From positions 796 to 64,795 of the IMG/VR virus record IMGVR_UViG_3300015360_000002: a stretch of 64,000 bases of DNA, one strand, 5' to 3'. This stretch comes from a virus. Lineage: Duplodnaviria; Caudoviricetes. The first letter of the stretch is position 1. Each line of letters begins with the position of its first letter. The notes under the pieces were generated by a model that saw only the letters and a list, made by a program, of their open reading frames with translations, made no database searches and was not told where the DNA came from. This document shows, in pieces, positions 23,446 to 60,233 of this stretch. The position numbers were made by a program, and so were the translations under genes.

Positions 23446-23449
23446 GCTC

Positions 23450-27504: not shown

Positions 27505-28379
27505 TGAAACGCCCAGCTTTCCAGTTTTATCCTGGGGATTGGCTCCACGATGCTGCCCTGCGATCCTGCTCCATCGAGGCCCGCGGGCTCTGGATGGACA
27601 TGATGTGCATCATGCACCAAGCCGAGCCGTATGGCTATTTGATGGTTAACCTCAAGGTTATCAATGAGGATAACCTTGCTCGGTTGGTCGGCGTACCCCG
27701 AAAGAGACTAAAATCTCTACTTTTTGAGCTAGAAAATGCCGGAGTTTTCTCAAAAAATATCGAAAATTCCGCGTTATTTTGTCGAAGAATGGTGCGAGAT
27801 GAAGAGGTCAGAAATCGGCGGGCACAAGGAGGCTCTTTGGGAGGTAATCCGGCTCTTTTGAAGCATAAAAAACATGCTCCGAAGGATAACCCGAAGGATA
27901 ACGATAAGGTTAACCTCGCAACAAAATCCTGTATAACCCCTTCATCTTCATCTTCATCTTCATATTCATACATAAGAGCGTCGGACCAATCCGACGCGGA
28001 TGAAAAGAATGAAGAAAACCCGGCAGAAAACCCGGCAAAAAAACGGCAAACGCATCGCGAACGAAATCCTCTTTTTGATTCTTTGGCAAAAGTAGGAGGC
28101 TCGAATGTTCTTGAACTCACAACTTCCGCAGCCCGAGCGGTGGGCGTTGCTCTGGCGGAGATTCGCAGAGCGACCCCGGACGTCACCACGGAAGAAATTG
28201 CCCGCCGTGCAAACACGTTTCGATCGCGAAATCCGACGTGGAAACTGACGCCGAACTCCCTGGCGCGCCATTGGGCCGAATGTGGATCCACTTTCACCAC
28301 CCCGCAGGAACAGATGGACCTCCCGGACAACGTGAAAGAACTCATTGCAATTCAAAACGCGCACCAATCCCATGCCTGA
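27504..28379 (+). CDS. Replication initiator (lambda-O-analogue, YdaU-like N-terminus)
   Basis: KRPAFQFYPGDWL...ARGLW, RRMVRD, poly-Ser linker, directly upstream of the helicase. Confidence 0.8.
   Translation: MKRPAFQFYPGDWLHDAALRSCSIEARGLWMDMMCIMHQAEPYGYLMVNLKVINEDNLARLVGVPRKRLKSLLFELENAGVFSKNIENSALFCRRMVRDEEVRNRRAQGGSLGGNPALLKHKKHAPKDNPKDNDKVNLATKSCITPSSSSSSSYSYIRASDQSDADEKNEENPAENPAKKRQTHRERNPLFDSLAKVGGSNVLELTTSAARAVGVALAEIRRATPDVTTEEIARRANTFRSRNPTWKLTPNSLARHWAECGSTFTTPQEQMDLPDNVKELIAIQNAHQSHA
27644..27970. repeat. Iteron-like repeats / probable replication origin
   Basis: Several AGG(T/A)TAAC(C) copies at 27644-27677 and 27882-27916, an AT-rich stretch between them, and a (TTCATC)n run. 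Confidence 0.6.
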
Positions 28380-29727
28380 CCTTCCCCACTCCATCGAGGC
28401 CGAGGAATACCTGCTTTCCAGCCTGTTTGTGGCTGGGGCCCAGGGTGTCGCGTCCGCCGTCAATTCCGGCGTCTCGCCTGCCACTTTCTTCGCCGAAACC
28501 AATGCCACAGTGTTCGGCGCGATCATCACCCTCGCAGAGCGTGGCCAGGTCCCGAGCGTCCAAGCAGTTATCCACGAGTTGAATTTCTCAAAAACTCTGA
28601 CGCAGGCCGGGGGGATGCCGGACGTCCTGCGCATCGTCGGATTGGTGCCAACCTCAGTAAATCTATCGCTCTACATCCAGCGCGTCAGGGAGTTGCAGCT
28701 TCTCCGCACGATCGCTCGCACCACTCGGGCACTCCACGAGGAGGCGTTCAGCCAAGAGGCCAATGTGCCTGAATTCGCCGAGCGAGTCGAGCGGACCATC
28801 CTCGGACTGTCTCAGGATCGCGTAAAACCTGCCCGGACGTGGGAACAGGCTGTTGCCGAGACTTCCACCGAGTTCGAGGCAATGCTCCTTGCGAAGCCGG
28901 GCGCCGTTCTGGCCGGCGAAATCTCGTGGGGATTCCCCGACATGGACCGATTCTTCGGGCCAATGGCGCCCGGCCAGCTCGTCATCCTCGCAGCACGCCC
29001 TAGCGTTGGAAAATCGAGCCTCATGCGCCAAACCGCTACCGAGGTATTAAAAACCGGAAAGATCGTCTCCATCGCAAGCCTAGAGGTCAAGGACAGGGCA
29101 ATAGCACGGAACATCGCTCAGGCTTTGAGCGGCATCAGTTATCGCGCGCTTCGCGTTGGGGCCCATCCGGCAGAAGCCGAGGACTTCCGCCGTGCGTTGG
29201 AAAAAGTGAAGTATCTCCCTCTCATCGTCACCGACGATTTTTCGGCAACAGTTTCGCAAATATGCGCACAAGCCCGCCTTGCGAAGGCAAAACGAAACCT
29301 TGGACTCGTGTGCGTCGATCACCTCCACGAGCTCGCCGAATGCAAGAACCCACCGAAGGGCACCAATACAGCCCAAATGTACGGACGCGCGGTCAAAGCG
29401 TTCAAGGAATTGGCCGGTGAACTCGAAGTCCCCGTCCTCGTGCTCGCTCAACTCAACCGCGGATCAGAATCAGATAAACGCGTCCCCACCCTCTCCGACC
29501 TCCGTGACTCCGGGAACATCGAAGAAGGAGCGGATAAGGTAGTTTTGCTACACCGTCCGCTCGAAAACCCGCTGAACAACATGCAGCAGTCCGAGACGAG
29601 CAATCCGAAGGATCACCCAACGTTTTACACCCAGGCAATCCAAGCCAAGGGCCGCGATGATGGCACGAATTCGATGGGTATCATCTTCCAACGCGCCACA
29701 GCGCGATTCGTTCCACTCACCCGATGA
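28372..29727 (+). CDS. dnaB: Replicative DNA helicase
   Basis: PHSIEAE, AARPSVGKS, SLE, VDHL, LAQLNR, PTLSDLRDSGNIEEGAD. Confidence 0.92.
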   Translation: MPDLPHSIEAEEYLLSSLFVAGAQGVASAVNSGVSPATFFAETNATVFGAIITLAERGQVPSVQAVIHELNFSKTLTQAGGMPDVLRIVGLVPTSVNLSLYIQRVRELQLLRTIARTTRALHEEAFSQEANVPEFAERVERTILGLSQDRVKPARTWEQAVAETSTEFEAMLLAKPGAVLAGEISWGFPDMDRFFGPMAPGQLVILAARPSVGKSSLMRQTATEVLKTGKIVSIASLEVKDRAIARNIAQALSGISYRALRVGAHPAEAEDFRRALEKVKYLPLIVTDDFSATVSQICAQARLAKAKRNLGLVCVDHLHELAECKNPPKGTNTAQMYGRAVKAFKELAGELEVPVLVLAQLNRGSESDKRVPTLSDLRDSGNIEEGADKVVLLHRPLENPLNNMQQSETSNPKDHPTFYTQAIQAKGRDDGTNSMGIIFQRATARFVPLTR

Positions 29728-36390: not shown

Positions 36391-36392
36391 AA

Positions 36393-36821: not shown

Positions 36822-36829
36822 GGGGGAGA

Positions 36830-36873
36830 GAAACTGAGAAACTGAAACTGAAACTGAAACTGAAACAACTGAA
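36830..36873 (+). repeat. (GAAACT)n intergenic microsatellite
   Basis: About 6-7 imperfect copies between ssb and the next gene. Confidence 0.85.
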
Positions 36874-36878
36874 GGAAT

Positions 36879-37205: not shown

Positions 37206-37206
37206 A

Positions 37207-37725
37207 ATGAAGAAGAGGGGCCTGGCGATTAAATGGATGGAGCTACCGGAGCACGTGAGGGCGATGAATCGTCACGTGGAGGGGGAGGTGTTTGTGAGGA
37301 ATTTTGAAGAGTCGTTGGGGATTGAGAAGGAGATGGTGAGGAGGGAGGAGAAGGGGGAGGAGAGAGCAGTGAGACGACTGAGGCAGAGACAGGAGCCGGT
37401 GATGAACAAACTTGAGGAGCGGTTTTATGAGCAGTTGAAGAAGGACAAAGATCGGTGTGACGAGAAGGGGAAGGTGATAGGGGAGATCAAGATTCAGGCA
37501 GTGAGGTTGGAGTTGGCGCGGGGGATTTGGTACAAGCCGGACTTTTTTTTGGTGGAGGGGAAGAGTTTGAGGCCGATCGCGTATGAAGTGAAGGGGCCGA
37601 AAGTGTTTAGGGGAGGGTTTGAGAATTTGAAGGTGGCGGCGAGGGTGCACGCGTGGATCAGGTTTTATCTGGTGTGGGAGAAGACGCGAGGAGGGGAGTG
37701 GGAAAGACAGGAGGTTTTACAATGA
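37207..37725 (+). CDS. PD-(D/E)XK endonuclease (DUF1064-like)
   Basis: MNKLE..F, YKPDF, YEVKG. Confidence 0.75.
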   Translation: MKKRGLAIKWMELPEHVRAMNRHVEGEVFVRNFEESLGIEKEMVRREEKGEERAVRRLRQRQEPVMNKLEERFYEQLKKDKDRCDEKGKVIGEIKIQAVRLELARGIWYKPDFFLVEGKSLRPIAYEVKGPKVFRGGFENLKVAARVHAWIRFYLVWEKTRGGEWERQEVLQ

Positions 37726-39131
37726 ACAACAACGTGAATAGCGCGCTGGCAAAAGCTGGGATGACGAAGGAGAACGTCCGTCGGATCATGGACGAGGTGG
37801 AGGTGAATTATGAACGGTTGGACAGGTGTCCGGCGCACGCGTTTGAGTTGATCGAGGGAGGGCAGCCATTGCGGAACCGATATGCGTGCAAGGTGTGTGG
37901 AGGGGAGGTCGACAATACGGCGCGATTTTGGTATACGAAGGGACTGGAGCACGGGAGGAGATTTGGAAAATGACCGCGATCGAAACAGTGAAGGAGTTTC
38001 AGAAGTGGAGGAGGGGAGAAGGGAGGTACGCGGGTACGGAGAACGGGGGGAGGCCGGAACCGATGCCGCAAACGCCGGAACAGTATGGGTTGGCGATTGA
38101 CGAGGTGGTGAAGTTGGCGGAGATCGGGAGGCTGTCGGTGGAGGAGGCGAGGACGTGCCATGAGAAGCTGCCGCTGGACGTCTGGCTCAAGGCGAAGGCG
38201 GCGTTGCTTGCGAAAATTAATGAATTTATGAATACGAAGGGGGAACCATGAAGCGGGCGATCGTGCAGTTTGTGGCGGTGGTTGGGATTATAGGGACGAC
38301 CCTGCATGTGGTGCTGGGCGTTTCTGTCGGGTTGATGGTGGTTTCCGCAGTGGTGAGTGGAATAGGGGTGGTTGTGGTGATTGCGGCCGCGGTCAGCCTG
38401 AAACGGAAAAATGATAAAGAGGAGGAGGGCAGATGAAACTGACGACGCTCGAACTTGAACGGATGGCGAGAAGGGGAGCGGAGGACGGGTACGATACGAC
38501 GTGGCACGCGCAGATGACCGAGAGTCCAAGGATGAGATCGACCATGGGGAGGATTCGCGACGAAACGCTGGCAACGCTTTTTTTGGAGGACGAAAAGGCG
38601 TATCAGGAAAGCCTGGCAAAATGGGGGAAGGAAAATGGATGAGGTGATCCATTTTACGATTCCGGACATAAAGCTGGGGGTGACGCGCAAGCTGGAGATG
38701 GAGACGCTTGCGAGAGAACTGAGGAAGCACGGGTTTAAGGTCGGAGGTATGAGAGCGGTGCAGTCATGGATGTCGGTGCGAGAGATGGAGGATAAGTTTA
38801 AGAAAATTCTCGAAGAAGCGGGGGTGGCCCGACTGGTGGTCTGGCACGAAGACCGAAATCGCTGCGTGAACGTGCGGGCATACCGTAAGGTGAAGTAGCG
38901 ATTTTTCTGATGTCGATACACGTGATACCGATTGGGGATGAGAAGCCGCACGAGACCACGCACGAATGCGCGTGCCGGCCGACCGTGGAGTGGGTGGATC
39001 CGACGGACGGTAAGCCGTACGAGAATGGCCCGTTAGTCATCCACAATTCGTACGATGGCCGGGAATACGTGGAACGTGCGATCGGGGAAAGTCTGGTGAA
39101 GGGGAGTCGGTGGAAAGTGATCGAAGTATGA
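37722..39131 (+). CDS. Small hypothetical genes (37722-37973 Zn-finger-like, 37970-38251, 38248-38436 membrane, 38433-38642, 38635-38898, 38910-39131 H..C.C.P motif)
   Basis: Chain of overlapping start/stop codons. Confidence 0.55.
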
Positions 39132-39931
39132 AACCGTCAAAATTAGATGCGGTGATTTGTTGCGACTTGATTCGTGGAGTTTACTCCGCGTTTGAAGCAT
39201 GGGAACAGTCCGGCCGGCCCAGAGAGGGAAGTTTTGAATGGAAGGACTGTTTGATTTGGGGGGAGTCGATGAGCTACGAGCGCAGGCCGGGGCCGCGTGA
39301 GCGGCACCATTGGGTCAGGGAGTGGTCACCAATGGGCACGTGCCTGTTGATTGGGAAAACGTTGTACGTGGTTTTCCGGGGAACATGCACCGCGCATGAG
39401 TGGAACAACAACGTCCGGTTTCCGCTGCGATCGTTTCGGGTGCCGATTGGAGCGGATGTGAATTTGTTGGCACCGCGCGAGTATTACATGGGCAACGTCC
39501 ATGACGGATTTGCGGACTCAATGGAATCACTTCAGCAGGATCTTATCGCAGAGGTGAAGCGCCTGATACCGGGAGCAGAGAGGGTGATTGTCACAGGGCA
39601 TTCATTGGGGGGTGCGATCGGAACGCTCGCGTTTGCGTCGATCCTGGCGCGGTTGCCGATTGCGAGAATGACGACGGGGATGGTGTTTGGCTCGCCGAGG
39701 GTCGGGAACCAGGAGTTCAAGCGTGCATTTTACACCGTGGGGAATCCTGAGACGTTCTGGAGATACGAGTTGATGCACGATCCGGTCGTGGATGTGCCAC
39801 CCAGGAAGATAATGTGGGTTTGGGAATACAATCACGTGGGCGAGCAGATTCTCCTGACGGAGCAGTTCGGGAGCGATCGGAAGAATCACGCGATCGAGAG
39901 CTATCGGACGGCAATCATGAACCTGCCATAG
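39128..39931 (+). CDS. Class 3 lipase (alpha/beta hydrolase)
   Basis: VVFRGT, VHDGF, VTGHSLGGA nucleophile elbow, FGSPRVGN, DPV..VP, YNHVG, C-terminal H. Confidence 0.9.
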   Translation: MKPSKLDAVICCDLIRGVYSAFEAWEQSGRPREGSFEWKDCLIWGESMSYERRPGPRERHHWVREWSPMGTCLLIGKTLYVVFRGTCTAHEWNNNVRFPLRSFRVPIGADVNLLAPREYYMGNVHDGFADSMESLQQDLIAEVKRLIPGAERVIVTGHSLGGAIGTLAFASILARLPIARMTTGMVFGSPRVGNQEFKRAFYTVGNPETFWRYELMHDPVVDVPPRKIMWVWEYNHVGEQILLTEQFGSDRKNHAIESYRTAIMNLP

Positions 39932-39933
39932 AT

Positions 39934-39941
39934 TGCAACCG
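39934..39941 (+). promoter_or_regulatory. Putative late-promoter motif TGCAACCG
   Basis: Starts 42 nt upstream of the terL ATG (39976). Confidence 0.65.
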
Positions 39942-39975
39942 GGATGTGATTGATTGGTTTCGGAAGGATCAAGGA

Positions 39976-41796
39976 ATGACGGAATTTGCAATGTCTAGCC
40001 CCCTCCCCGGCCAAGACCACAATCTCACAGCGGAGCAGATCCAGGATCTCCTCTTTCAGGATTTTGAGGTCTGGGCGCACAGTTTTGCGGTATTCAAGTC
40101 GATCAAGGGCGGCACGCCCCATCACGGGTTGATTCCAAATGTCCTCCAGCTTCGGGTGATCGCCCATTATCGGCGCTGCATTATCGAAAAAAGGCCATGC
40201 CTCATCATGATCCTCAAGCCGCGGCAGAAGGGCGCATCGACGATCGCGGAGGCGGTGTGTTACCGGCACATGCGGATGCACGAGAACCTGAACGGAGCGC
40301 TGATGGGCGACGTTCAGAGCACGTCGGACAAGGTTTTTGAGATGTTTCGTACCTACGCGAAAGAGGACGCGTACCCGTACGCCGACGGGAATCCGAACAT
40401 CATGAAGGACTTGGACCTGACGGACGAAATCACACTCGGCAGCGGATCAAAATGGTGGAAGGAGACAGCAGGGAGCTCGAACGCGGGCCGATCGGGTACC
40501 GTTCAGGTGCTGCACTTGGACGAGGTGGCATACTTTCCGTCTTCCGACACAAAGGATCCGACGACAGCGGTGTTGGGTGCGTTCTACAAAGAGGGTCCGA
40601 TGTCGCTCGGATTCGCGACGTCTACCGCGAAGGGGGCGGTGGGATGGTTTCACGATACTTGGTGGGGCGATAACGACTGGCTCAAGGTTTTCGCCGCCTG
40701 GTTCGAGTTTAAGGACTCTGTAACTCCATTTCCGTCGCCGAACGCGCGCGCTCAGTTCGAGCGCACCATGACCAGGGACGAGATCGAGGAGCAGGTCCTC
40801 TACAAGGTCTCGCCTGAGCAGCTCCAGTGGCGCCGAAAGAAGATCCAGACCGACTACAAGGGCGACACGGGCAAGTTCCGACAGGAATACCCGTCCAGCG
40901 AGCAGGGAGCCTTCCTCAGTTCGAGTCGTATGCGCTTCGAGGCGTCCTCCGTGTCCGCAATGATGGTGTGGGCGCAGACCAACGACACGCGGGAGACGGG
41001 CAACCTGCGGCAGCAGATTGCGGGAGGAGCCTCGACATGGATGCCGGACCAACAGGGTTCAGTCCATCGCTGGGAGGAGCCCGTCTTTGGGCGGAAATAC
41101 CTCATTTCGGTGGATGTGTGTACGGGCAAGGACCAACAAATTGGGGGTACAACCGCGAATCCCGACTGGCACTCCGTTCAGGTGTGGCGACAAGCGTTCA
41201 TGAACGAGGATGGGGTCTACCGAAAACCGGCGCTGGTCATGCTTCACCATTCGCGTGAAGACATTGATATTCTCGCAGAAATCATCGCAGCGATGTCAGC
41301 CTACTATGGCCAGTGTCTCGTCGTCCCCGAGGTGAACAACTGCGGATTGGCGCTGGTTAAAGCACTCGTGAGACTCAAGGTGAACGTGTTCCGTCGACAG
41401 GCGCACGTCCAGCGCCGCAAGCAGGAGACGGAGGAGGAAAAGCTCGAAGCGTTCGGGTGGCTGACCGACAAGATGACCCGCAAGTGGATGATCGACGAAG
41501 TAGCACCGATCATTCGTCAAGAAGGAGTGGAGATTAAGGCGCCCGAAGTCCTTCAAGAGATTCAGAGTTTCGTCATTGATGACAACGGAAACGCGAAAGC
41601 AGCACCATCCAAGCACGACGACCACGTCATGGGAATGTGCATCGGTATTTACAACCTTGGGCACGCAACGGAGTACAAACTGGCGAAGGTGACCGGGATG
41701 GACCTGAGCAGGCTCGGTCGAGATCCGCGATATATGGCCGGCGAGGGTTGGCGTCGGCGGATCCCGCTGGATGCCCTCCGGAGTAACCGCAAGTAA
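39976..41796 (+). CDS. terL: Terminase large subunit
   Basis: LKPRQKGAST Walker A, LHLDEVA Walker B, STAKG motif III, ISVDV nuclease Asp, HDDHVM. Confidence 0.92.
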   Translation: MTEFAMSSPLPGQDHNLTAEQIQDLLFQDFEVWAHSFAVFKSIKGGTPHHGLIPNVLQLRVIAHYRRCIIEKRPCLIMILKPRQKGASTIAEAVCYRHMRMHENLNGALMGDVQSTSDKVFEMFRTYAKEDAYPYADGNPNIMKDLDLTDEITLGSGSKWWKETAGSSNAGRSGTVQVLHLDEVAYFPSSDTKDPTTAVLGAFYKEGPMSLGFATSTAKGAVGWFHDTWWGDNDWLKVFAAWFEFKDSVTPFPSPNARAQFERTMTRDEIEEQVLYKVSPEQLQWRRKKIQTDYKGDTGKFRQEYPSSEQGAFLSSSRMRFEASSVSAMMVWAQTNDTRETGNLRQQIAGGASTWMPDQQGSVHRWEEPVFGRKYLISVDVCTGKDQQIGGTTANPDWHSVQVWRQAFMNEDGVYRKPALVMLHHSREDIDILAEIIAAMSAYYGQCLVVPEVNNCGLALVKALVRLKVNVFRRQAHVQRRKQETEEEKLEAFGWLTDKMTRKWMIDEVAPIIRQEGVEIKAPEVLQEIQSFVIDDNGNAKAAPSKHDDHVMGMCIGIYNLGHATEYKLAKVTGMDLSRLGRDPRYMAGEGWRRRIPLDALRSNRK

Positions 41797-41838: not shown

Positions 41839-42972
41839 ATGGAAACCGCTATCGACAAAACCCAGAGCTACAACGCGACGCGTTTGGGGCCACCGGATAG
41901 CGGAACCCTTGCAGCGTTCAAGACCCCGAGGGAGAACCGAACCCCGCAGCAGCAGCAACTCCTGAATCAGCGACTCGAACTTGAGAAACGTACCGGTGTC
42001 GCAAAGGGGGCGATCGTGGGAGCGATCGGTCAGGTGCTTCTCGACGAAGACAAGGCCGCGCAGCACGGCACGCGCGAAGCCGTTGCCGGAGTGGCGCACA
42101 ATCAGGCGCGGACGTCAGCCCTTGCAACACGTGGTTATGGCCCGGACGGGCAACCAATGGTGCCAGGCCAGACTTTTGGCGCGCAGGCACAGAACCCACA
42201 GATGAGGAGCCCCGCCTCCGCCCAGAATCAATCTCCATCTTCGGATCAGAATCCACGACAGGGTTTCGCGCTTCGACAAATGCCCGGTGGCGGGTTCCGT
42301 GGTTCATCGACGGTGAACGGAAATCCGCAACAGGAAAACTTCACGACCCGCGACGCCGCTCTTGCGTTTTATGGCACCGCTCAACCGATGGCAGCGTCGG
42401 GCGCGGCCGGCATTCAGATGGCCCAGACGGATCCATCCGCCGCTCCAAGGAACGCGCCACAGCGTCCCGATCCGATGGGGCCCGCAGAGCCTGACACAAT
42501 GGGGTACGGAGCAATGAATCCCGCGCCCGCAGAAGAGTCTGCGTTCATGGCGACGCCTTCACAGTCCATGCGACCAGGCACGCCGCTCGGATCCGAAGCA
42601 CTCATGCGAGGACGGCCAAACTCTGGTCAGCCGATCCCCCAGCCAAATTCGACTGCCGCGCTCAGCAACTATGTTGCGGAAATGGCGGGCCAACAGGCGG
42701 GCCAACCCGCACTGAGACCGCCGATGATCGACGGCAGCGATCCCGCCGCAGGCCGGCCGGTCGCTCCGATGGCCGCGCCGCAGAACATGGTCCAGAATCG
42801 CATTGCGGACTTTCAGAAGCCGATGGAGGCGGGCGCATCCATGATGCCGTCTACCAGCCAATTCGCATCTCCGACGACGAAGATGAAGCAGACCGCGAAG
42901 AAGATGGGCAATCCACGCGCGAACGCCGGCACGCAAGAATTCTTCAGCAGCAACGACGACTATGGCTTTTGA
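41839..42972 (+). CDS. Low-complexity (Q/P/A/M) internal virion / ejection protein
   Basis: Disordered composition, upstream of the giant virion proteins. Confidence 0.5.
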   Translation: METAIDKTQSYNATRLGPPDSGTLAAFKTPRENRTPQQQQLLNQRLELEKRTGVAKGAIVGAIGQVLLDEDKAAQHGTREAVAGVAHNQARTSALATRGYGPDGQPMVPGQTFGAQAQNPQMRSPASAQNQSPSSDQNPRQGFALRQMPGGGFRGSSTVNGNPQQENFTTRDAALAFYGTAQPMAASGAAGIQMAQTDPSAAPRNAPQRPDPMGPAEPDTMGYGAMNPAPAEESAFMATPSQSMRPGTPLGSEALMRGRPNSGQPIPQPNSTAALSNYVAEMAGQQAGQPALRPPMIDGSDPAAGRPVAPMAAPQNMVQNRIADFQKPMEAGASMMPSTSQFASPTTKMKQTAKKMGNPRANAGTQEFFSSNDDYGF

Positions 42973-45900
42973 TCCCAGCCCGACCGCGTTCGACTACGAC
43001 GATCCAGAAACCCCAGAGGGCGCTTTTAGTTCAGGCGCGCGCGGGGTATCTAATTCGATCGCGACGGCCCAAGCAGCGGATCCGCTGAAGGGCGAGATTC
43101 GTCTGCGCACACAGCGCAAGGCGGACCTCGGGCGCACGAAGCAAGCTCTCGACCAGCTCGAAGGCACATTCCTCTCTACTGAGGGCGGTGGACTCTTCCA
43201 GTTGGACGAGAAGGGTCAGCCATTCAAGAACGCGGACGGCACGTACGTCCCCGATATGGGAGCGCGCGTCGAATCATTGCGCGCGCGATCGCTCGGGCAG
43301 GTGGGATTCGTGAAGGGCGCTTTGACTCCAGGTGTCGCGCGTGGGGATAAGACCAATGATGCGTTGGCGGCTCAACAGGAGCTCTCTCAGATCGAACCCG
43401 CCTACGAGGCAAAGCGGCAGAAATGGGAACGCATCCAAGAGCAGCGCGCGATGTGGAAGCATACGCACGACCGCAACGAGCTCGAACTCGGCGCCTTGTC
43501 GGCGGAACGGCTCGCTCAGCAAGGGCTTTTCATGCCCACCCAGCCCCAGCAGCAGGCTCCGATGGGTCAACCAGCTACAGCCGCAGACTCACCAATGAGC
43601 CCGGCCGCTACGACGCCAGCTCAGGCCCAAGATCCAATCTTCCTTGGCGAAGTCGGGAAAAACGCGACGGATCTCGCTGCATCGTTTGGCTCAGGATCGA
43701 ATGCGTTGCTGAAGATGGCCGGCGACCTGTACGGACTCGCCAGCGGAAACTTTGAAAACTGGCTCTCCGAGCAGGGCAAGTACGGCATGGATCATTTCGA
43801 GCGCATGAAGTCGCCCGAGATGCTTGCAAAGCAGACCGAACGGAAAGCCGCGATCGACGCTGCGCCGGATGAGCTGGGGAAGGCTTTGGCATTTGTGAAG
43901 AGCACGGTCATGGATCCGATGCTCTTTGCGTCGACCGTGGTGGAGCAAGTACCCAACACCGTCGGAACCGGAAGCGTGGGCTTGGTGATGCGCAAAGGCG
44001 CCGAGAAACTCCTCCTTCGGAAAGCTGCCACTGAGGCAGCAAAGGCATTGGCCGAGAAACAGGCCATCAAAGTCGGAGTTGGTGCCGCAGTTGGAGCCGG
44101 CGCCGCCATGCAAGGCGCGGACGTTGGTGGCGACCAGTACGGTCAACTCCTCGTTGAGATGGAGCGGATGACCAAGCCGCAGCTTGAGAAGATCCCCGAA
44201 ATCGCGGAGCTCGTGAAGCGGGGCGCATCCATCGACGAAGCAAAAATGGCGTACGCGCTCACGCAGGCGCGCAAGACGGGCGCCGTCGCAGGCGCGATCT
44301 CGTTGGCCGCTCAGGCGCTTCCTGGTGGCGCAACAATTGAAAAGACGCTGGCCGGTGGTGTTGCAGGCCGTTCAGTGCGCGGAAGGCTTGCCGGTGCCCT
44401 CGTCGGTGGTGTTGGCGAGGCTGTGTCAGAATCCATCGAGGAAGGTGGCGGACAGTTTGCCTCAAACGTGTTTGCGCAGGGCGTCGACCCGACCCGAAAG
44501 CTCACTCAGGGTGTGGGCGAGGCCGTCGGGCAGGCGATCGTCACCGCTGGACCAATGGGCGCCGGCGCTGGTGCGCTCAACGGTGGCGCGGACCCAGAAG
44601 CCCAGATCCCCCCCGCTCAACAGACCCCTCCGGGTCAGCCTCAGACGCCTCCCACTTCCCCGCCCGCGGCGCTGGCTCAAGGCGCGCCTTCCCGGAGTCA
44701 CGGAGGTTATAGAGGGTGGGGACCCCAACCCCCGCCCGCGGCGCTGGCTCAAGGCGCGCCTCTTGCCCCTTCTGCGGCGCCGATAGACAACAATGAAATT
44801 ACGGTGGATCCCGAACTCCAAGCGGAGCTCGACGCCGAGACGGAACAATCCGCTGCGCCAAAGGCCCCAATTTCCACGCAGGGCGGGCCGGCTGCCCAAA
44901 CTGGCCTCATCCGTCAGCCCTCTGTAGGTTCGACTCCTACCCCTGCACCCACTCAATCGGAGGCGAAGCCAGCTTCGCCGTTCAATGTTTCGTCGCCCGA
45001 AGTAAAAGCGGCATGGGGAGAAGGCTCGCCCCCGGACGAGGCGAAAACGAAGATGATCCAAGATGCGATTGCGACTCCTGGAGTCACAATCGGGTATTCG
45101 ATTTTCGAGGGTCGACCAGGTCAACCGCGCCCCCACCAAGTGGATCTACTGGGACAAGATGGCGGAAGTTTGGTAGGCACCAACATTTACGACCTCGCGC
45201 GCCTTGGATTTGAAGCACCGATTCCACCGGCTGACATCAAGACCGGGAACTACACACGGGAGCAAATCGAAGAGGAAATTGCAAAACGAGGGACCGCAGG
45301 ACCTCAAACGACCAATCAGCCGACCGCGACCGAAACCCCGCAGGATGTAATACAGAAGCCTCAGAGAGCTCAGGCAACCGACGACGAGATTGACGACGGC
45401 ATGGTCGCTGCCGCTGAACGTGAAACAGACCCAGACAAGGAGGAAACGGAACCGATCAACCAAGGCGAAGATGTCGCGCCCGAAAAACTGGACGAAGTTG
45501 CACTGAAATCCGTATTGAGGGTGACGTTCAAAGACGGAACCGTGATTGAAGGCAATTACACCATCGCACAGGGGAATGGATACATCCGCGATAAAACAAC
45601 CAATGAAATCCATGTTCTCACGGGCGGTGCAGCAGTAGAAAGGGAGGGAAACCCGACTGCCAGAATCGTAAAGCTCCGCGACGGTATGGACGTGCAGGCC
45701 GAACAGGATGGCCGGAAATTCGGAAAACTGGAATACACTCAGCCCAAAACCCGCGATGAGTACGAGAATACGCTTTGGGACTTGGCGACCAAAGCGAACC
45801 AACTGAGGGCGGCGGACAGCTACAACCAGGATGACTTCAAGCGCAGTTTGCAGCTCGATGCTCAGTTTGAAAAACTTGCTGACCAAATCGAGCTCTCGAA

Positions 45901-47209
45901 AATAAAACGTCGATACCTCTTTGCTCAGGCCAATAGGCGAGCCAACGGTCAGCCATTGCAGAACCCAAATGAGTTCAGCGAAGGGCCGCTCGATGCTCTT
46001 CGATTCGGCGTTCCACGGATCACGGACTTCGATCCAAACCCGGAGAATAGAAAGAAGAACCGTGCTGCACTGCCGGTCTTCGCATACCCAACAAAAGCCG
46101 AGGTTGAAGCCAGCCTCGCCGACGCGCGCCTGAAGGGCCAACAGACCAAGAGCCCGCAACGTCGAAAAAAGATGGCTCAGATCATCCAGCTACGGCAAAA
46201 GCAACTCGCCACCGGAAAATATCGCGAGGCCGTTGAAAACGGGCTGGCTGAACAACCTTCCCCCAATGGGCAAGACCAAAAAGTGCCGACCGAAGCCCCT
46301 CAAGGGCAAGTAGGAGGACAAAAACCCGCATCGGTTAACGTGCGTTCCGGTGCGGGTACCTCCGTAACCTCGTTAGACGTCAAGGAACCGGCGATCTCGC
46401 GAGGGTCGAACACGCCGGCTAAACTCGCCCAAGTTGCGTCGCAGGTGGCTGGACTGAAAGAGAACGACGCCGCGGCAAAGTTTCTGAGGGACTTTGCGCC
46501 GCGCCTTCATAATGCGAATCCGGCCGCGTTCGCGGACATGGAGCTCAATGTCCTCACGGATGCCGAATGGAAGACCCACCCTTCCCTCTCGAAGAGCAAC
46601 CCCAATTCTCCAGCGGCGTTCAACGTAGGAAAGAACATCCTCTACCTTAATTCGGACAAGGTGAAGGGTGGCGAAGCGATTGCAGAGGCGATCGTCCATG
46701 AAGCTGGACACTTTGCCGAAATTTTTGCGCTTGGAGAAGCCTTCACGCAGCAGCAGTGGGAGTCCCTGACCGACCTCCAACGCGAGGATTCCGCCCGTAG
46801 CTACTCGTGGGACGATGGACGCACCGGAGCCGAGCTGAAGGACGATCGGCGCGCGCGCGCGGAGTGGGTTGCGATGCAGTTCACGCGTGTAGTGAAGGGT
46901 GACACGGTGGGAATGAACCCAACTGTAAAAGAACGCCTGAGCGAATGGTTGGAAATAATTAGAGCTCTGGTGAAGCGATGGGTAGGCAATGAGCGACTCT
47001 CAACGCCACAACTCGACGCCAAAATACTCGAAATTCTAGGCTACGCAGATTCGCAGATGACGGCCGATTCGGCTACCGTGACAACTGAGGCAGTTGACTT
47101 CGATACCGGGAACGTAGTCGACCAATCATCCTCTGCCTCCGAGGCCGTCGCCGAGAGTGAGCGAGCAGTGACTCGATACGAGTCCCTCTTGGATTGTCTG
47201 AAAACATGA
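42962..47209 (+). CDS. Large internal virion (polyvalent) protein with zincin-like peptidase domain
   Basis: G/A-rich helical ejection-protein region (E..EEG..Q), later AIVHEAGH...AEW.A HExxH domain. Confidence 0.7.
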   Translation: MAFDPSPTAFDYDDPETPEGAFSSGARGVSNSIATAQAADPLKGEIRLRTQRKADLGRTKQALDQLEGTFLSTEGGGLFQLDEKGQPFKNADGTYVPDMGARVESLRARSLGQVGFVKGALTPGVARGDKTNDALAAQQELSQIEPAYEAKRQKWERIQEQRAMWKHTHDRNELELGALSAERLAQQGLFMPTQPQQQAPMGQPATAADSPMSPAATTPAQAQDPIFLGEVGKNATDLAASFGSGSNALLKMAGDLYGLASGNFENWLSEQGKYGMDHFERMKSPEMLAKQTERKAAIDAAPDELGKALAFVKSTVMDPMLFASTVVEQVPNTVGTGSVGLVMRKGAEKLLLRKAATEAAKALAEKQAIKVGVGAAVGAGAAMQGADVGGDQYGQLLVEMERMTKPQLEKIPEIAELVKRGASIDEAKMAYALTQARKTGAVAGAISLAAQALPGGATIEKTLAGGVAGRSVRGRLAGALVGGVGEAVSESIEEGGGQFASNVFAQGVDPTRKLTQGVGEAVGQAIVTAGPMGAGAGALNGGADPEAQIPPAQQTPPGQPQTPPTSPPAALAQGAPSRSHGGYRGWGPQPPPAALAQGAPLAPSAAPIDNNEITVDPELQAELDAETEQSAAPKAPISTQGGPAAQTGLIRQPSVGSTPTPAPTQSEAKPASPFNVSSPEVKAAWGEGSPPDEAKTKMIQDAIATPGVTIGYSIFEGRPGQPRPHQVDLLGQDGGSLVGTNIYDLARLGFEAPIPPADIKTGNYTREQIEEEIAKRGTAGPQTTNQPTATETPQDVIQKPQRAQATDDEIDDGMVAAAERETDPDKEETEPINQGEDVAPEKLDEVALKSVLRVTFKDGTVIEGNYTIAQGNGYIRDKTTNEIHVLTGGAAVEREGNPTARIVKLRDGMDVQAEQDGRKFGKLEYTQPKTRDEYENTLWDLATKANQLRAADSYNQDDFKRSLQLDAQFEKLADQIELSKIKRRYLFAQANRRANGQPLQNPNEFSEGPLDALRFGVPRITDFDPNPENRKKNRAALPVFAYPTKAEVEASLADARLKGQQTKSPQRRKKMAQIIQLRQKQLATGKYREAVENGLAEQPSPNGQDQKVPTEAPQGQVGGQKPASVNVRSGAGTSVTSLDVKEPAISRGSNTPAKLAQVASQVAGLKENDAAAKFLRDFAPRLHNANPAAFADMELNVLTDAEWKTHPSLSKSNPNSPAAFNVGKNILYLNSDKVKGGEAIAEAIVHEAGHFAEIFALGEAFTQQQWESLTDLQREDSARSYSWDDGRTGAELKDDRRARAEWVAMQFTRVVKGDTVGMNPTVKERLSEWLEIIRALVKRWVGNERLSTPQLDAKILEILGYADSQMTADSATVTTEAVDFDTGNVVDQSSSASEAVAESERAVTRYESLLDCLKT
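44658..44761 (+). repeat. 32-bp direct repeats flanking a 40-bp spacer derived from dnaB
   Basis: CCCCGCCCGCGGCGCTGGCTCAAGGCGCGCCT at 44658 and 44730. Reverse complement of 44689-44723 matches 29482-29516 at 32/35. Confidence 0.9.
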
Positions 47210-50557: not shown

Positions 50558-50805
50558 GCCCGCGCGCAATAGCCACCCAAGGTCTCGGATTCGGGACGCT
50601 CTACGTCGCCGTCCTCGGACTCTTGCCATTGGCGCAGCCGGTCGAACCGGCGCCATCCATCGTCAGAAGTGGTCTTCAGGTAATGCAACCCACCATCCGC
50701 GGAACGGATGATCCAGAGTTGCACCAGTACCTCCAAAACGCGGCGGAAGAGGAGGAGATTCTTGTGATTCTACACTGCATCAGCGCATTCACTGACATCC
50801 GATGA
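50554..50805 (+). CDS. Hypothetical protein
   Basis: AIATQG start and EEEEIL end, coupled at both ends. Confidence 0.55.
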   Translation: MSPRAIATQGLGFGTLYVAVLGLLPLAQPVEPAPSIVRSGLQVMQPTIRGTDDPELHQYLQNAAEEEEILVILHCISAFTDIR

Positions 50806-53800
50806 CATTCAACGCTCTTGAACGGTGCCTCAAAAATGCGGGCAAAGCATTCTCTCCTAAAGAGGCGAACTTACTGCGCCGTCTTGCTGAACAATATGCC
50901 CAGGACGGAGCAAATGCGCTCGTCGCTTCGCAAAAGGCAGTCAAGTCCATCGCAGTGGTCTACAAGGCGAACCTCGAAAAGCTCAATGCGCACTACGAGG
51001 AAATGGGCGCCGTTATGCCGGTCAGAACGGGTTCACCAACCAAACTGTCAGAAAACTATGCGCCTCCGGAAAAAGGCAAACGCGCACGGTGGTCAGTCGG
51101 GCTCACGCCAGACGGCAATGAGGATCTCCTCAGCGTAATCGAACAGTTGGGCGGAATCCGTGTTCCATCAGCCACACGCAATTCTGGGGGCGAGTTGAAC
51201 GGTTTTGCTGAAACCTTCAATACGGGTATGGCTCGCCTCCTTCGACGCACCAATGCAACGGCGTCGACGGTCGATCAGCTACTTGGCGAACTTCCGTCCT
51301 ACGGTTACACGTTTGACACGCCCGACCAGCTTTATTCAGCAGTGCTGAAAGCAATGGAAACGCGCCGAAAGGTTCACAAAAATCAAAAGACTCAGGCTTA
51401 CGAAAATGCTTTCGATGAAGCGTTCCTTGGCAACGAGCAGAAGAAGCCCATGCTGCGCGCTGGAAAACCTGTCACGATTGACGATCTTGGCGTTGGCGAC
51501 TCTTTCGAGGTTAATGGAGAGAAGTTCACGGTCAAAAACGTGGACGAGGATGGGAACGTAACCATTAAAGACGGAATCACCCGGACGATCCCTCCTGACA
51601 CCGTCGTTTATCCCGACCGCGGCGAGGTCAAGCCGGCCAAACGCGACGCCACGTTTGCTCCAACGCCTCCAAAAAACGAACCCGATCCGAGATTTGGACC
51701 ACGCAAAGCCGTTCAACCGGATCTCATTCCCGAGGGCGATATTGAAATGACTCTCGACGGCGGCACGCAGGCCGACCCTGCATACCTCCTGAAGCAAAAA
51801 GAGGAGCAGGAAGCGGCGAAGAAGAAGTTGGAAGACGATCAAATCAAGATCCCTGAAGCCGAAAACACGCCGAAGAGAAACCCACTCCTTCCGAATCGCG
51901 ACTCCGTCTTGCCTGATGTGAATCAGCCCAAAGACACCCCGGCATCACCCGCTCCAGCCGGCGTCAAGAAGCCATCACGATTCGGCGGAAAGCGGCCCAG
52001 TGCCGAAACCCAGAAACTCGGCGACGATATTTTCGGCGCGCCCGCTGAAAATACCTCGAATGAAAAGTACGGGAAGAAATTCGGCACGAACCTGGCGAAG
52101 GCAAATCAGTTTGTTGATACCATTGTGCGGGACTTTCCTGATGTGACGAGCCGTGAAATGCTGGCCGCGTACATCGAGGAGTTTTTCCCGAATGCGAAAC
52201 CTTATTCGGAGGCGTTGTTCCGCAACCTTGGCAGCGCGATCGACGTCGATGAAACCGGAGGAATCGACTCGTGGGATTCATTTTACACGCCTGCGGACGA
52301 GACTCCGTCGACGCAGCCCCCACCGACTCCGCCACCTGCACCGCTTCCAAAATCGGGAACGATCGCGGAACGATCGTTGGAGGCAGCAAAACTCATTGAG
52401 GCGAGAATCAACACCAACCCGGCCGAGATGACTTGGCGTGAATTGTTCGCGCTCACAGACCAGGCATTTGGCGGCACACAAGCCGATGGGACATACACCG
52501 TCAAAGATGCTTACGACGCTTTGGAGACGGCCGTAAACCGATACATCCTTGTGCGTCTTCCAATGCCCGTGGACGGTTCCGTCCCTACGGCGCTCAACTA
52601 CATTCAGGAGCTGAATACCCTTCTATCGCGAATTCCGACGCAGACAAAGCGCAGCCAAGAGCAGGATCGGATGCAGCAGTTTTCCACCCCGCCACCGTTG
52701 TCTTTCGTCGCCAATTGGGTCGCGAATTTGAACGAGAACGACATCTACCTGGAGCCGAGTGCTGGAGTCGGCGGGCTGGCAGTGTTCGCCAAGTCCATCG
52801 ACGTAGGGGCTATCATCGCGAATGAGTTGTCGATGGCGCGCTCATCAATTCTTAATTTGAGCGACATTCCTGATGTCGTAATCACCGAAAATGCCGAAGT
52901 GCTTCACGCGATCGTGAACAACAAGATCGCTCGCGGTGATTTGCTGCGACCCACAGTGGTTGTGATGAACCCGCCGTTCTCCAATAGTACTGCGGGAGTC
53001 CTTGGTGACACGATGGTCGGCGCGAGGCACATCATGGAGGCTTTGAAGATCCTGCCTCCGGGTGGTCGATTGGTCGCAATCGTCGGCGAGGGTATGGCAA
53101 TGGACAAACCCACTTTCCGGGTATGGTGGAAAGACCTCGGCACTAAATACAACGTCCGCGCCAATATCCACGTAGACGGGAAGAATTACACGAAATACGG
53201 CACGAGTTTCGGCGTTCAGCTTGTCGTCATCGACAAGCCGCTGGCAAATGAAGTGGTAGGCGTAGTGAATCCGATTGTTGCTGAAGTTGACTTGATTGAA
53301 CAACTACCTAACCTGTTAGAGGGGATTCGCAATGATCGCAAACCAATCAAACTTGAAAAGCCTGAAACACCGGCCGATAAACCAAGCGGCGGCAAACCGC
53401 CTACGGGAAATCGACCCAAGTTGGACGCCCCACGAGGACCTACCAGTCCTCGAACTGGCGATGGCGGTTCTCCCCGAGGAGGATCCCCGGCTGCCAACGG
53501 TGGTGCAGCAAACCAGAACCCCAGCGTCCCAACGGCAAGCACTCCGCCACTTGGAGACGTACCTGACGCCGGACGGCCTGATGGCGGGGACGCCGGAGGA
53601 CGCAGCGTCACTGATAGCGGACGAGCTTCAAGCGAACAACCCGCTGGAGTAGATCCAGCCGACGCGGACAGCGCCCCACAGGGCAATGAAGACGACGAGG
53701 TCTATTCGGACTATACGCCGACCAAGGTTGCATCTGACGGATCCCAAAAGCATCCAACTCCGTTGGTTGAGAGTGCGGCAATGGCGTCGGTCGCGCCGCC

Positions 53801-60199: not shown

Positions 60200-60233
60200 T
60201 CATCCATGCCCAGCACCACATCAGGTGTTGGTC

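What the first reader, a model, noticed from the sequence alone, without database searches (positions are those of the whole stretch)
44658..44761. Repeat-spacer-repeat inside a virion gene, with a spacer copied from the phage's own dnaB (possible natural ectopic Cas1-Cas2 integration)
Seen: two identical 32-bp repeats (44658-44689, 44730-44761) enclose a 40-bp spacer. The reverse complement of 44689-44723 (GTCCCCACCCTCTataACCTCCGTGACTCCGGGAA) matches dnaB 29482-29516 at 32/35 nt, with the three mismatches adjacent. The net gain is 72 bp, so it stays in frame in a Pro-rich linker (PPAALAQGAP-SRSHGGYRGWGPQ-PPPAALAQGAP). The repeat has a weak internal hairpin (GCGCT...GGCGC). A TTC lies at the donor junction on the inserted strand. 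Established: Cas1-Cas2 inserts a ~33-40-bp protospacer and duplicates a repeat-length target; off-target 'neo-CRISPR' integration is known experimentally for E. coli type I-E; type I-C uses ~32-bp repeats and a TTC PAM. Inference: host adaptation machinery wrote a phage-derived spacer into the phage or prophage, and it was kept as new coding sequence. Alternative: long-range template switching during replication or repair.
Basis: partly seen in the sequence, partly recalled or inferred. Interest (0 to 1): 0.85.

Follow-up and report, generated by a model that had tools for sequence, protein, structure and literature searches.

The report
Phage gene insert copied from dnaB
A phage gene carries a recent in-frame 72-base insertion, made of a duplicated 32-base stretch plus 40 bases copied mostly backwards from the phage's own helicase gene; it looks like a CRISPR spacer insertion, but a DNA-copying slip fits at least as well.

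Summary
Two identical 32-nt repeats (44658-44689, 44730-44761) flank 40 nt. Positions 44689-44723 are the reverse complement of the phage's own dnaB (29482-29516), 32 of 35 identical, with three adjacent mismatches.

The window is a complete 64.8-kb phage genome with terminal repeats, from a mat metagenome. The insertion lies in frame in a Pro/Ala-rich linker of a 1415-aa "polyvalent"-type protein. Both distant relatives that cover the linker lack the inserted peptide.

The mechanism is not settled. For Cas1-Cas2: the sizes (32 + 40) and the near absence of junction microhomology. Against it:
- The copy is imperfect: a 3-nt patch, plus 6 terminal nt that match neither dnaB nor anything else in the genome.
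- No dnaB allele with the variant was found.
- The 32-mer matches no CRISPR repeat and folds no better than shuffles.
- TTC lies inside the insert, not beside the protospacer.
- The phage has no cas1, and the host is unknown.

My odds: error-prone template switching about 0.45, Cas1-Cas2 ectopic integration about 0.30, other about 0.25. No close relative with the ancestral allele could be retrieved.

The parts
42962..47209 (+). Host gene of the insertion. The 1415-aa ORF (P0001) lies in the packaging/morphogenesis cluster. Its N-domain (residues 228-510) is homologous to the N-domains of large 'polyvalent' phage proteins. It has an HEAGH motif near its C-terminus.
   Evidence: ORF; no Pfam or PHROG family for P0001 itself; neighbours are terminase large 39814-41796 and portal 60225-62294; 39% identity over 288 aa to P0007, which carries LPD38; other relatives carry ART-PolyVal. 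'Virion protein' is inferred from neighbourhood and family, not shown.
44658..44689 (+). Repeat copy 1 (32 nt), which encodes PPAALAQGAP. Its last base, T 44689, also fits the donor, giving 1 nt of junction ambiguity.
44690..44729 (+). 40-nt insert ('spacer'), which encodes SRSHGGYRGWGPQ in frame.
   Evidence: Gap opposite these residues in P0003 and P0004.
44689..44723 (-). Tract templated by dnaB. Its reverse complement equals dnaB 29482-29516 at 32 of 35 positions.
   Evidence: (E 4.3e-9)
44708..44710 (+). 3-nt patch: TAT where a faithful copy of the donor would give CGG.
   Evidence: The same 3 differences appear against the dnaB contigs of runs X1 and X2.
44724..44729 (+). 6 nt (CCCAAC) of unknown origin between the dnaB-derived tract and repeat copy 2. 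They match the donor flank at 1 of 6 positions.
   Evidence: No template of 10 nt or more in the window.
44730..44761 (+). Repeat copy 2 (32 nt), 100% identical to copy 1.
28345..29727 (+). dnaB-type replicative helicase gene (the donor gene).
   Evidence: DnaB_C 4.4e-50, DnaB 4.4e-14; homologues
29482..29516 (+). Donor stretch, which encodes the conserved helicase motif VPTLSDLRDSGN.

Best explanation
This is a single, recent, complex templated insertion made by error-prone copy-choice synthesis, that is, template switching during phage replication or break repair of the FoSTeS/MMBIR kind.

Proposed sequence of events:
1. A growing + strand left its template in the linker of ORF 42962-47209 at the end of the 32-nt stretch (44689).
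2. It primed with 1 nt or less of homology on the sense strand of the phage's own dnaB, 15 kb away.
3. It copied about 35 nt imprecisely, leaving the 3-nt patch.
4. It added or miscopied 6 nt.
5. It re-primed on the original template 32 nt behind the point where it had left, so those 32 nt were copied twice.

The product (32 + 40 = 72 nt) happens to be in frame and stop-free in a Pro/Ala-rich inter-domain linker, so it survived as 24 extra residues.

Shown: the structure, the donor, the imperfection of the copy, the in-frame survival, and its presence in essentially all genomes of run X1.

Inferred: that it is an insertion, on the basis that distant relatives lack it and the two repeats are identical; the polymerase-switch mechanism; and the order of steps.
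For: 1. The copy is a patchwork, not a clean fragment: 19 exact nt, a 3-nt patch, 13 exact nt, then 6 nt that match neither the donor flank (1 of 6) nor anything of 10 nt or more in the genome.

2. The two repeat copies are identical at 32 of 32 positions, and two strains differ at only 6 listed sites in 1.8 kb. Eight changes confined to the 40 inserted nt are therefore unlikely to be later drift and probably date from the event itself (inference).

3. No alternative donor was found.
- The dnaB contigs of X1 and X2 both differ from the insert by the same 3 letters.
- The 5 closest DnaB relatives that are in frame there (P0022-P0025, P0031) all read LSDLRDSG.
- 0 of 108 motif instances found in the 120 listed homologues has the Y-N that the insert would imply.
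- The 6-nt end would replace K-R. The R is present in 28 of the 29 printed motifs.
- The shared 19-mer has 0 hits in viral contigs and 4 hits in genome contigs, all without flank similarity.
- The 40-mer has no match in 50,697 phage records.

4. According to passages of PMC2621351, MMBIR/FoSTeS events are complex and show duplicated segments in either orientation. [quoted passage not shown] They involve low-processivity synthesis with repeated re-invasion, and re-priming behind the point of departure gives a duplication.

5. Nothing about the 32-mer is CRISPR-like.
- 0 exact matches in viral, metagenome and genome collections.
- No Rfam CRISPR-DR match even at E up to 10.
- Its hairpin is no better than 137 of 200 shuffles.
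- It codes for linker residues like those of the relatives.
Against: - Junction microhomology is minimal: 1 nt at the left junction and 0 at the right. The passages of PMC2621351 describe 2-5 nt as typical.
- The donor is 15 kb away and inverted. That is allowed by the model, but I read no report of such an event in a phage.
- The duplicated length (31-32) and the insert length (40-41) both fall in the narrow range of CRISPR repeats and spacers. Under this model that is coincidence.
- No second event of this kind exists in the genome: 1 of the 9 close direct-repeat pairs of 16 nt or more has this architecture. So there is no sign of a general tendency.
- The polymerase responsible is unknown. 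No DNA polymerase gene was identified among the 25 window ORFs that I scanned with Pfam.
Confidence: 0.45

Rival explanations
1. Ectopic ('neo-CRISPR'-type) integration by a host Cas1-Cas2 integrase. During an infection the host's adaptation complex captured a fragment of phage DNA from dnaB. It integrated the fragment by two staggered transesterifications 31-32 bp apart into replicating phage DNA. Gap repair then duplicated the 32 bp. The genome was packaged and the in-frame product persisted.
For: - The geometry fits: a 31-32-bp target duplication flanking a 40-41-bp insert is what full-site spacer integration produces.
- P. furiosus Cas1-Cas2 makes full-site integrations at non-CRISPR sites. 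There the attacked bases, mostly G or C, lie one repeat length (30 bp) apart (PMC6698737, abstract and passages).
- Off-target genomic integration in E. coli (Nivala et al. 2018) is described in passages of 10.1101/148544 and PMC7054753. The original paper is not held.
- Junctions show 1 nt and 0 nt of microhomology, as expected for an integrase.
- The insert comes from phage DNA.
- Read as 31 + 41, the duplicated segment starts with C and ends with C, which is G on the other strand.
Against: - The insert is not a faithful contiguous protospacer: 8 of 40 positions differ from dnaB in two clumps. No donor with those bases was found.
- The repeats show zero divergence, which argues against later drift.
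- TTC is not adjacent to the protospacer. It consists of the shared T plus the first two inserted bases, so a PAM would have been carried into the spacer. The flanks proper give no PAM that I can test without knowing the host.
- 40 nt is long for systems with 32-nt repeats (recalled, not tested).
- The 32-mer resembles no known repeat and has no significant hairpin.
- The phage has no cas1, cas4 or RT. The host is unknown, so no cas1, repeat length or PAM could be checked.
- None of the 12 papers listed, of 33 found, reports such an integration into a phage genome by its title or abstract start.
Confidence: 0.3
2. End-joining capture: a break in the linker was repaired by a non-homologous or alternative end-joining pathway. 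The pathway filled in the ends, which gave the 32-nt duplicate. It also captured or synthesised a short piece templated by dnaB DNA, or by cDNA of dnaB mRNA, with a few untemplated nucleotides added.
For: - The 6 untemplated-looking nt and the 0-1 nt of microhomology are typical of end joining.
- The inserted + strand has the polarity of a first-strand cDNA of dnaB mRNA, with the extra 6 nt at its 3' end (read directly).
- A bacterial group II intron-like reverse transcriptase acting in microhomology-mediated end joining appears in the listing (10.1101/2022.03.14.484287; listing and abstract start only).
Against: - A 32-nt staggered break in 75% G+C DNA has no known source other than an integrase.
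- No RT is present in the phage.
- The host's repair genes are unknown.
- It needs more separate steps than either of the other models.
Confidence: 0.12
3. A functional phage-borne mini-CRISPR array (repeat-spacer-repeat), either captured from a host array or used against related phages. The spacer would match a competitor's dnaB perfectly and the carrier's own dnaB only imperfectly.
For: Virus-borne mini-arrays of 1-2 spacers exist. [quoted passage not shown] Solitary repeat units in phages act as RNA anti-CRISPRs (PMC10651486, abstract and passages). The imperfect self-match superficially fits that pattern.
Against: - In those cases the repeats are those of the host's arrays. This 32-mer has 0 exact matches in one genome each of 185,579 species, in IMG/VR, or in JGI metagenomes. 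It also has no Rfam CRISPR-DR match and no significant structure.
- It lies in frame inside a long ORF and codes for linker residues similar to those of relatives.
- The mismatches do not follow a codon-wobble pattern.
- The implied target would encode V-G...Y-N in a motif where none of the homologues found does.
Confidence: 0.04
4. An assembly or amplification chimera, not a real allele.
For: The only run that shows the junctions (X1) may be the sample the genome was assembled from. The independent run X2 showed no contig over the insert.
Against: In X1 the junction-spanning unitig has depth 10.9 and the repeat unitig has depth 22, a ratio of 2.0, against flanks of 14-15. That is the pattern expected if essentially all genomes carry repeat-insert-repeat. 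Random chimeras would be rare, one-off molecules. The product is also exactly in frame.
Confidence: 0.03

Closest known systems
Off-target ('neo-CRISPR') spacer integration by Cas1-Cas2: Nivala, Shipman & Church 2018, known here only through citing papers (10.1101/148544, PMC7054753); and P. furiosus Cas1-Cas2 non-CRISPR full-site integration (PMC6698737)
   Same: A repeat-length duplication (31-32 bp) flanks a spacer-length insert (40-41 bp) at a non-CRISPR site. The insert derives from invader DNA, and junction homology is essentially absent.
   Different: - The target here is a phage genome and a coding sequence.
- The insert is an imperfect copy with a 3-nt patch and a 6-nt foreign end.
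- There is no adjacent PAM.
- No host, cas genes or cognate repeat are known.
- The known cases are experimental (overexpression or in vitro), or are circumstantial cases in cellular genomes.
Replicative template switching, FoSTeS/MMBIR (Hastings et al. 2009, PMC2621351)
   Same: It is a complex junction with a short segment copied from a distant locus in inverted orientation, sequence of unknown origin at the junction, a small duplication from re-priming behind the departure point, and signs of low-fidelity, low-processivity synthesis.
   Different: - It was described mainly for human CNVs and E. coli amplification, at kb-Mb scale.
- Typical microhomology is 2-5 nt, against 1 and 0 nt here.
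- I read no report of it for a phage genome.
Virus-borne mini-CRISPR arrays and solitary repeat units (Medvedeva et al. 2019, PMC6858448; Camara-Wilpert et al. 2023, PMC10651486)
   Same: Repeat-spacer-repeat in a viral genome without cas genes, with a spacer related to a replication gene of the same virus lineage.
   Different: Known mini-arrays use the host's CRISPR repeat. Some have leaders and promoters, they are not reported as part of a reading frame, and they match relatives perfectly. Here the repeat is native coding sequence with no match to any CRISPR repeat.
Templated insertions at repaired double-strand breaks (e.g. PMC11724301, PMC8421209; listings and abstract starts only)
   Same: Short (tens of nt) templated, often inverted, inserts combined with copies of flanking sequence.
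   Different: Those are eukaryotic. Most are templated from within tens to hundreds of nt of the break, not from 15 kb away.

Membership tests
Cas1-Cas2 ectopic spacer integration (neo-CRISPR) | Duplication of a target segment of one CRISPR-repeat length flanking the insert | tested here: met
   Exact 32-nt (or 31-nt) duplication. That this lies within the usual range of repeat lengths is recalled, not tested.
Cas1-Cas2 ectopic spacer integration (neo-CRISPR) | The insert is a spacer-length, faithful, contiguous copy of a protospacer | tested here: not met
   The length of 40-41 nt is acceptable. But only 32 of 40 positions agree with the sole donor found, with a 3-nt patch and 5 of 6 terminal mismatches. 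No other donor was found.
Cas1-Cas2 ectopic spacer integration (neo-CRISPR) | A PAM of the cognate system next to the protospacer in the donor | tested here: inconclusive
   The TTC consists of the shared T plus the first two inserted bases, so it lies inside, not beside, the insert. The cognate system is unknown.
Cas1-Cas2 ectopic spacer integration (neo-CRISPR) | A host (or the element itself) encodes Cas1-Cas2 whose repeat length equals the duplication | not testable with these tools
   The phage has no Cas1 or Cas4.
Cas1-Cas2 ectopic spacer integration (neo-CRISPR) | The target resembles the cognate repeat or leader-repeat junction (borders and internal motifs) | not testable with these tools
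   The cognate repeat is unknown. The borders are C...T, or C...C in the 31-nt reading. For comparison, P. furiosus prefers G, then C (PMC6698737).
CRISPR array / virus-borne mini-array | The repeat belongs to a CRISPR repeat family of the host | tested here: not met
   0 exact matches in genome contigs (185,579 species), viral contigs and metagenome contigs. No Rfam CRISPR-DR match at E up to 10. Only exact matches were searched.
CRISPR array / virus-borne mini-array | A partly palindromic repeat, or a conserved structure for processing | tested here: not met
   The hairpin is -7.1 kcal/mol, and 137 of 200 shuffles fold at least as well. For the other strand the figure is 187 of 200.
CRISPR array / virus-borne mini-array | A non-coding locus with its own promoter or leader | tested here: not met
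   It lies in frame inside a 1415-aa ORF with homology on both sides.
FoSTeS/MMBIR-type templated insertion | Inserted sequence templated from elsewhere in the same genome, in either orientation | tested here: met
   35 nt in inverted orientation from dnaB, 15 kb away.
FoSTeS/MMBIR-type templated insertion | Microhomology (typically 2-5 nt) at each switch junction | tested here: not met
   1 nt (T 44689) at the left junction. None at the right junction, where 6 unassigned nt intervene.
FoSTeS/MMBIR-type templated insertion | Complexity: several segments, unknown filler, imprecise copying, duplication by re-priming behind the exit point | tested here: met
   Segments of 19 + 3 + 13 + 6 + 32 nt. 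The features are as described in passages of PMC2621351.
Phage 'polyvalent' proteins (host gene of the insertion) | A large multidomain protein that shares conserved modules with LPD/ART-PolyVal-bearing proteins and is encoded in the morphogenesis region | tested here: inconclusive
   The N-domain is 39% identical over 288 aa to P0007, which carries LPD38. P0001 itself hits no Pfam or PHROG family. It lies between terminase and portal. Packaging into virions was not tested.

The most novel reading that the evidence does not exclude
A host CRISPR adaptation complex (Cas1-Cas2) integrated a fragment of the infecting phage's own dnaB into the phage genome instead of into the CRISPR array. It duplicated a 31-32-bp target, and the product was packaged and fixed as 24 new codons in an injected or virion-associated polyvalent protein. 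This would be a natural record of ectopic spacer integration into a virus, and a new source of viral coding sequence.
Probability: 0.3. Interest if true: 0.85.

Novelty: new member of a known kind. Interest (0 to 1): 0.5.

Why it matters
If this is template switching, it is a clean, datable example of how a phage makes new coding sequence from the antisense of one of its own genes. It would also show that FoSTeS/MMBIR-like events act in phage genomes.

If it is Cas1-Cas2, it would show that CRISPR adaptation machinery can mutate the virus it is sampling. That would be a new kind of host-virus interaction, and a possible route to virus-borne repeat-spacer units.

Either way, the locus gives a simple search pattern: a self-derived insert flanked by a 25-45-nt duplication. 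This pattern can be counted across phage genomes, and the distribution of duplication lengths would separate the two mechanisms.

Tried and rejected
**Ancestral allele.** I looked for close relatives of the 1415-aa protein in four ways, and none gave a close relative.
- Viral contigs: 10 pattern hits, 0 confirmed.
- Metagenome contigs: 79 pattern hits, 0 confirmed.
- INPHARED phages by blastn: none.
- The 5.8-billion-protein set. At near length there were 20 hits including self; the nearest are 60% identical over 29% of the query, 53% over 21%, and 41% over 35%. For shorter proteins over residues 420-720 there were none.

So only distant relatives could be aligned. The contig of a closer phage (P0026, DnaB 85% identical, 69 kb) could not be fetched.

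**Run X2** (independent study, about 99.6% identical strain). Its flanking contigs stop at 44655 and start at 44733. No contig was laid on the insert except the dnaB contig.
- Its word share of 0.73 is about what I calculate if all words across 44626-44762 are missing (0.74). An identical repeat-insert-repeat would give about 0.88 by my arithmetic.
- This may mean X2 carries another allele here, or only that depth (7-8x) was too low. A hole proves nothing, so I use it only as a lead.
- X3 laid nothing.

**A minority ancestral allele in X1.** The depths (flanks 15.2 and 14.4, insert 10.9, repeat 22) fit a carrier fraction near 1 if local depth is about 11. They cannot exclude up to roughly 30% without the insert.

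**A better microhomology.** The donor's next two bases would extend to a 5-nt match (GACGC) with 44644-44648, upstream of repeat 1. A switch there predicts a 77-nt, out-of-frame product, not the one observed. Rejected.

**A degenerate 72-nt tandem duplication.** The 40 nt upstream of repeat 1 match the insert at about 13 of 40 positions (hand count), which is background. Rejected.

**Donor in another genome.** The 19-mer shared by donor and insert gave 0 viral hits and 4 genome hits, all chance with no flank similarity.

**The out-of-frame DnaB of P0026.** It breaks right after ...RVP. This looked like a second rearrangement at the same spot, but a 1-nt shift inside the C-tract explains it. 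P0023 is the same protein in frame.

**Other closed or missing resources.** Supplements of papers were not consulted. The original Nivala et al. paper is not held, so its details on off-target site preferences, which bear on the Cas1-Cas2 reading, were not seen.


Full report
**What the window is.** The window is bases 796-64795 of a 64,795-bp IMG/VR virus record with direct terminal repeats, rated 100% complete. It comes from, or at least occurs in, a microbial-mat metagenome (run X1). It is therefore a free phage genome, and no host DNA is attached.
- Genes identified: DnaB helicase 28345-29727, C5 DNA methylase 30104-30994, DUF2303, and an AAA_23/SMC-like ATPase.
- Also: terminase large subunit 39814-41796 and portal 60225-62294, a weak capsid match at 5260-6753, and a 3129-aa protein with Sno-type helicase domains at 50802-60191.
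- No tRNA genes were found.

**The observation.**
- Two identical 32-nt copies lie at 44658-44689 and 44730-44761. They are the only 2 matches in the window at up to 3 mismatches, and 0 of 100 shuffles reach 2. They are also the only copies in the whole record.
- The bases on either side of the two copies differ, so the duplication is exactly 32 nt and the enclosed piece exactly 40 nt.
- The reverse complement of 44689-44723 equals dnaB 29482-29516 as 13 exact + 3 adjacent mismatches + 19 exact. blastn against the whole genome finds this as the only non-self match (E = 4.3e-9).
- T 44689 belongs both to the repeat and to the donor match, so the event can be read as 32 + 40 or as 31 + 41.
The last six inserted bases (44724-44729) match the donor's continuation at only 1 of 6 positions. 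They have no template of 10 nt or more anywhere in the window.
- The donor stretch encodes the conserved helicase motif VPTLSDLRDSGN.

**Is it an insertion, and is it real?** The 72 nt lie in frame in ORF 42962-47209 (1415 aa).
- The ORF has homology on both sides of the site. Residues 228-510 are 39% identical to the N-domain of large LPD38/ART-PolyVal 'polyvalent' proteins. The part from about residue 655 onward matches P0002.
- The site is in a Pro/Ala/Gln-rich linker.
- P0003 and P0004 are the only 2 relatives that cover the linker. In both, the alignment opens a gap opposite RSHGGYRGWG, and their linkers stay Pro/Ala-rich. These relatives are distant and the region is low-complexity, so this is supportive rather than decisive.
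- The inserted peptide (SRSHGGYRGWGPQ) is compositionally foreign to the linker.
- In run X1 the Logan contigs give exactly the graph expected for repeat-insert-repeat at word size 31. The left contig ends at 44687, and a 100-nt unitig spans 44660-44759 at depth 10.9 with 0 differences. The 32-nt repeat unitig has depth 22, and the right contig starts at 44732.
- The 2.0 ratio of repeat depth to insert depth means essentially all genomes there carry the insertion. X1 may be the source sample, so this rules out a sporadic chimera but is not independent confirmation.

**Age of the event.** The two repeat copies are identical (32 of 32). A second strain (X2) differs from the window at only 6 listed positions in 1.8 kb. 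The event is therefore recent. The 8 differences between the 40 inserted nt and dnaB are clumped as 3 adjacent plus 5 of the last 6, so they are very unlikely to be later point mutations. Either the donor was not the present dnaB sequence, or the copying was imprecise.

**Search for another donor.** None was found.
- The dnaB contigs of both X1 and X2 show the same 3 differences from the insert.
- Of the 120 listed DnaB homologues (2344 with E <= 0.001 among 8000 scored), the closest five that are in frame there (76-82% identical, plus the fragment P0031) all read LSDLRDSG.
- Y alone (8 instances) and N alone (6 instances) occur in the family. The Y-N pair that the insert would imply occurs in 0 of the 108 motif instances my pattern found.
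- The 6-nt end would replace K-R by V-G, and the R is present in 28 of the 29 printed motifs.
- P0026, from an 85%-identical relative, goes out of frame right after RVP. This is a 1-nt shift in the C-tract, since P0023 is the same protein in frame.
- The 19-mer common to donor and insert has 0 exact matches in IMG/VR. It has 4 in 185,579 species genomes, about the number expected by chance by my estimate. None has flank similarity or a DnaB context.
- The 40-mer has no match in 50,697 phage records.

**Is the 32-mer CRISPR-like?** No test says so.
- There are no exact matches in viral, metagenome or genome collections.
- There is no Rfam CRISPR-DR hit at E up to 10; the only hit is an unrelated sRNA model at E = 9.2.
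- Its hairpin (-7.1 kcal/mol) is matched or beaten by 137 of 200 shuffles, and by 187 of 200 on the other strand.
- It encodes linker residues like those of the relatives, so it is native coding sequence that was duplicated, not an imported repeat.
- The phage encodes no Cas1, Cas4 or RVT_1 reverse transcriptase.
It would therefore be inside the spacer, not an adjacent PAM.

**Other events in the genome.**
- Among the 9 close direct-repeat pairs of 16 nt or more, only this one has a repeat of 30 nt or more with a spacer-sized gap.
- Among the 39 distant exact matches of 14 nt or more, the donor/insert 19-mer is the third longest.
- The longest is a 21-nt match (about 36 of 40 when extended) in inverted orientation, at 25840-25879 and 32864-32903. 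It has no flanking duplication (0 direct-repeat families). In both places it lies just upstream of a gene start, so it looks like a shared regulatory or coding element, not a second event.

**Weighing the mechanisms.**
- Cas1-Cas2 is the one enzyme known to produce a duplication of about 30 bp around an insert of about 35-40 bp. Off-target full-site integration is documented: PMC6698737 (abstract and passages), and Nivala et al. 2018 as described in 10.1101/148544 and PMC7054753.
- The near absence of microhomology also fits an integrase.
- But an integrase pastes a pre-existing fragment. It does not explain a 3-nt patch and a 6-nt foreign end in a copy otherwise identical to the phage's own gene.
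- Template switching during replication or break-induced repair does explain patchy copies, unknown filler, inverted orientation, and duplication by re-priming behind the exit point (PMC2621351 passages). It usually shows 2-5 nt of microhomology, which is absent here.
- Under template switching, the match of both lengths to CRISPR dimensions is coincidence.
- I put template switching at 0.45, Cas1-Cas2 at 0.30, end-joining capture at 0.12, a functional or captured mini-array at 0.04, and artefact at 0.03.

**Comparison with what is known.**
- The structure works like a neo-CRISPR unit in geometry. It fails the 'faithful protospacer copy' feature, and the host-dependent features could not be tested, so I do not file it as one.
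- It is not a virus-borne mini-array in the sense of PMC6858448, nor a solitary repeat unit in the sense of PMC10651486. Its repeat is not a CRISPR repeat, and it is translated as part of a long ORF.
- As a mutation class it is closest to FoSTeS/MMBIR-type complex insertions.
- In the literature searches, I saw no report of Cas1-Cas2 integration into a phage genome. These were listings, abstract starts and the cited passages only. They cover open-access papers only, and supplements were closed.

**Verdict.** The finding is a real and unusual feature whose observation is confirmed. Its boldest interpretation remains possible but is not favoured. Raw-read analysis of the two runs, and CRISPR arrays from the same communities, would decide it.

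Noticed in passing
window 36200-39800: The + strand is almost free of C over about 3.5 kb. GC skew is +0.86 at 36500-36799 and +0.25 to +0.64 onward to 39799, while G+C stays at 51-59%. The region spans several + strand ORFs just upstream of the terminase gene. It includes a 9-nt AGGAGGTGA-like array (36720-36792) and GAAACT x4.8 (36838-36866). The cause is unknown.
   Followed up: partly
window 25840-25879 and 32864-32903: An inverted pair of about 40 nt (21 exact, about 36 of 40 when extended) around a GAATTC-centred palindrome. It brackets the replication module. In both places it lies just upstream of a gene start, and at 32.9 kb it also forms the 3' end of the - strand ORF 32844-33521. 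There is no flanking duplication.
   Followed up: partly
protein P0026 (DnaB of a relative on a 69,145-bp contig): It is 85% identical to the window's DnaB up to ...SDKRVP, then out of frame for 157 residues. P0023 is the same protein in frame, so this looks like a 1-nt indel or sequencing error in the C-tract that also marks the end of the donor stretch.
   Followed up: yes
window 42962-47209 and relatives P0002, P0007, P0010, P0017: The host gene belongs to a modular family. Its relatives carry LPD38, ART-PolyVal, an L5 gp82-like domain, or (in the nearest relative, P0002) a 2'-5' RNA ligase/Acb1-like insert. These suggest anti-defence cargo. P0001 itself has an HEAGH metallopeptidase-like motif near residue 1242.
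   Followed up: partly
window 50802-60191: A 3129-aa ORF with Strawberry-notch-type helicase domains (AAA_34 2.6e-116, Helicase_C_4 2.2e-81), lying next to the portal gene. It is a second giant polyvalent-type protein.
   Followed up: no
window 26296-27504: A weak DUF2800 match (E 0.0018, below Pfam's cut-off) in the replication module. I recall this family as PD-(D/E)XK/Cas4-like nucleases, but the Cas4 model itself found nothing in the genome.
   Followed up: partly
window 23352-23439: A tandem 45-nt duplication (16 + 26 exact nt in register) in the region of overlapping + strand ORFs 22528-23445 and 23249-23638.
   Followed up: no
run X2, window 44655-44733: In an independent, 99.6%-identical strain the contigs break at 44655 and 44733, instead of at the positions expected for the same repeat-insert-repeat. 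No contig covers the insert. This may be another allele, or only low depth.
   Followed up: partly
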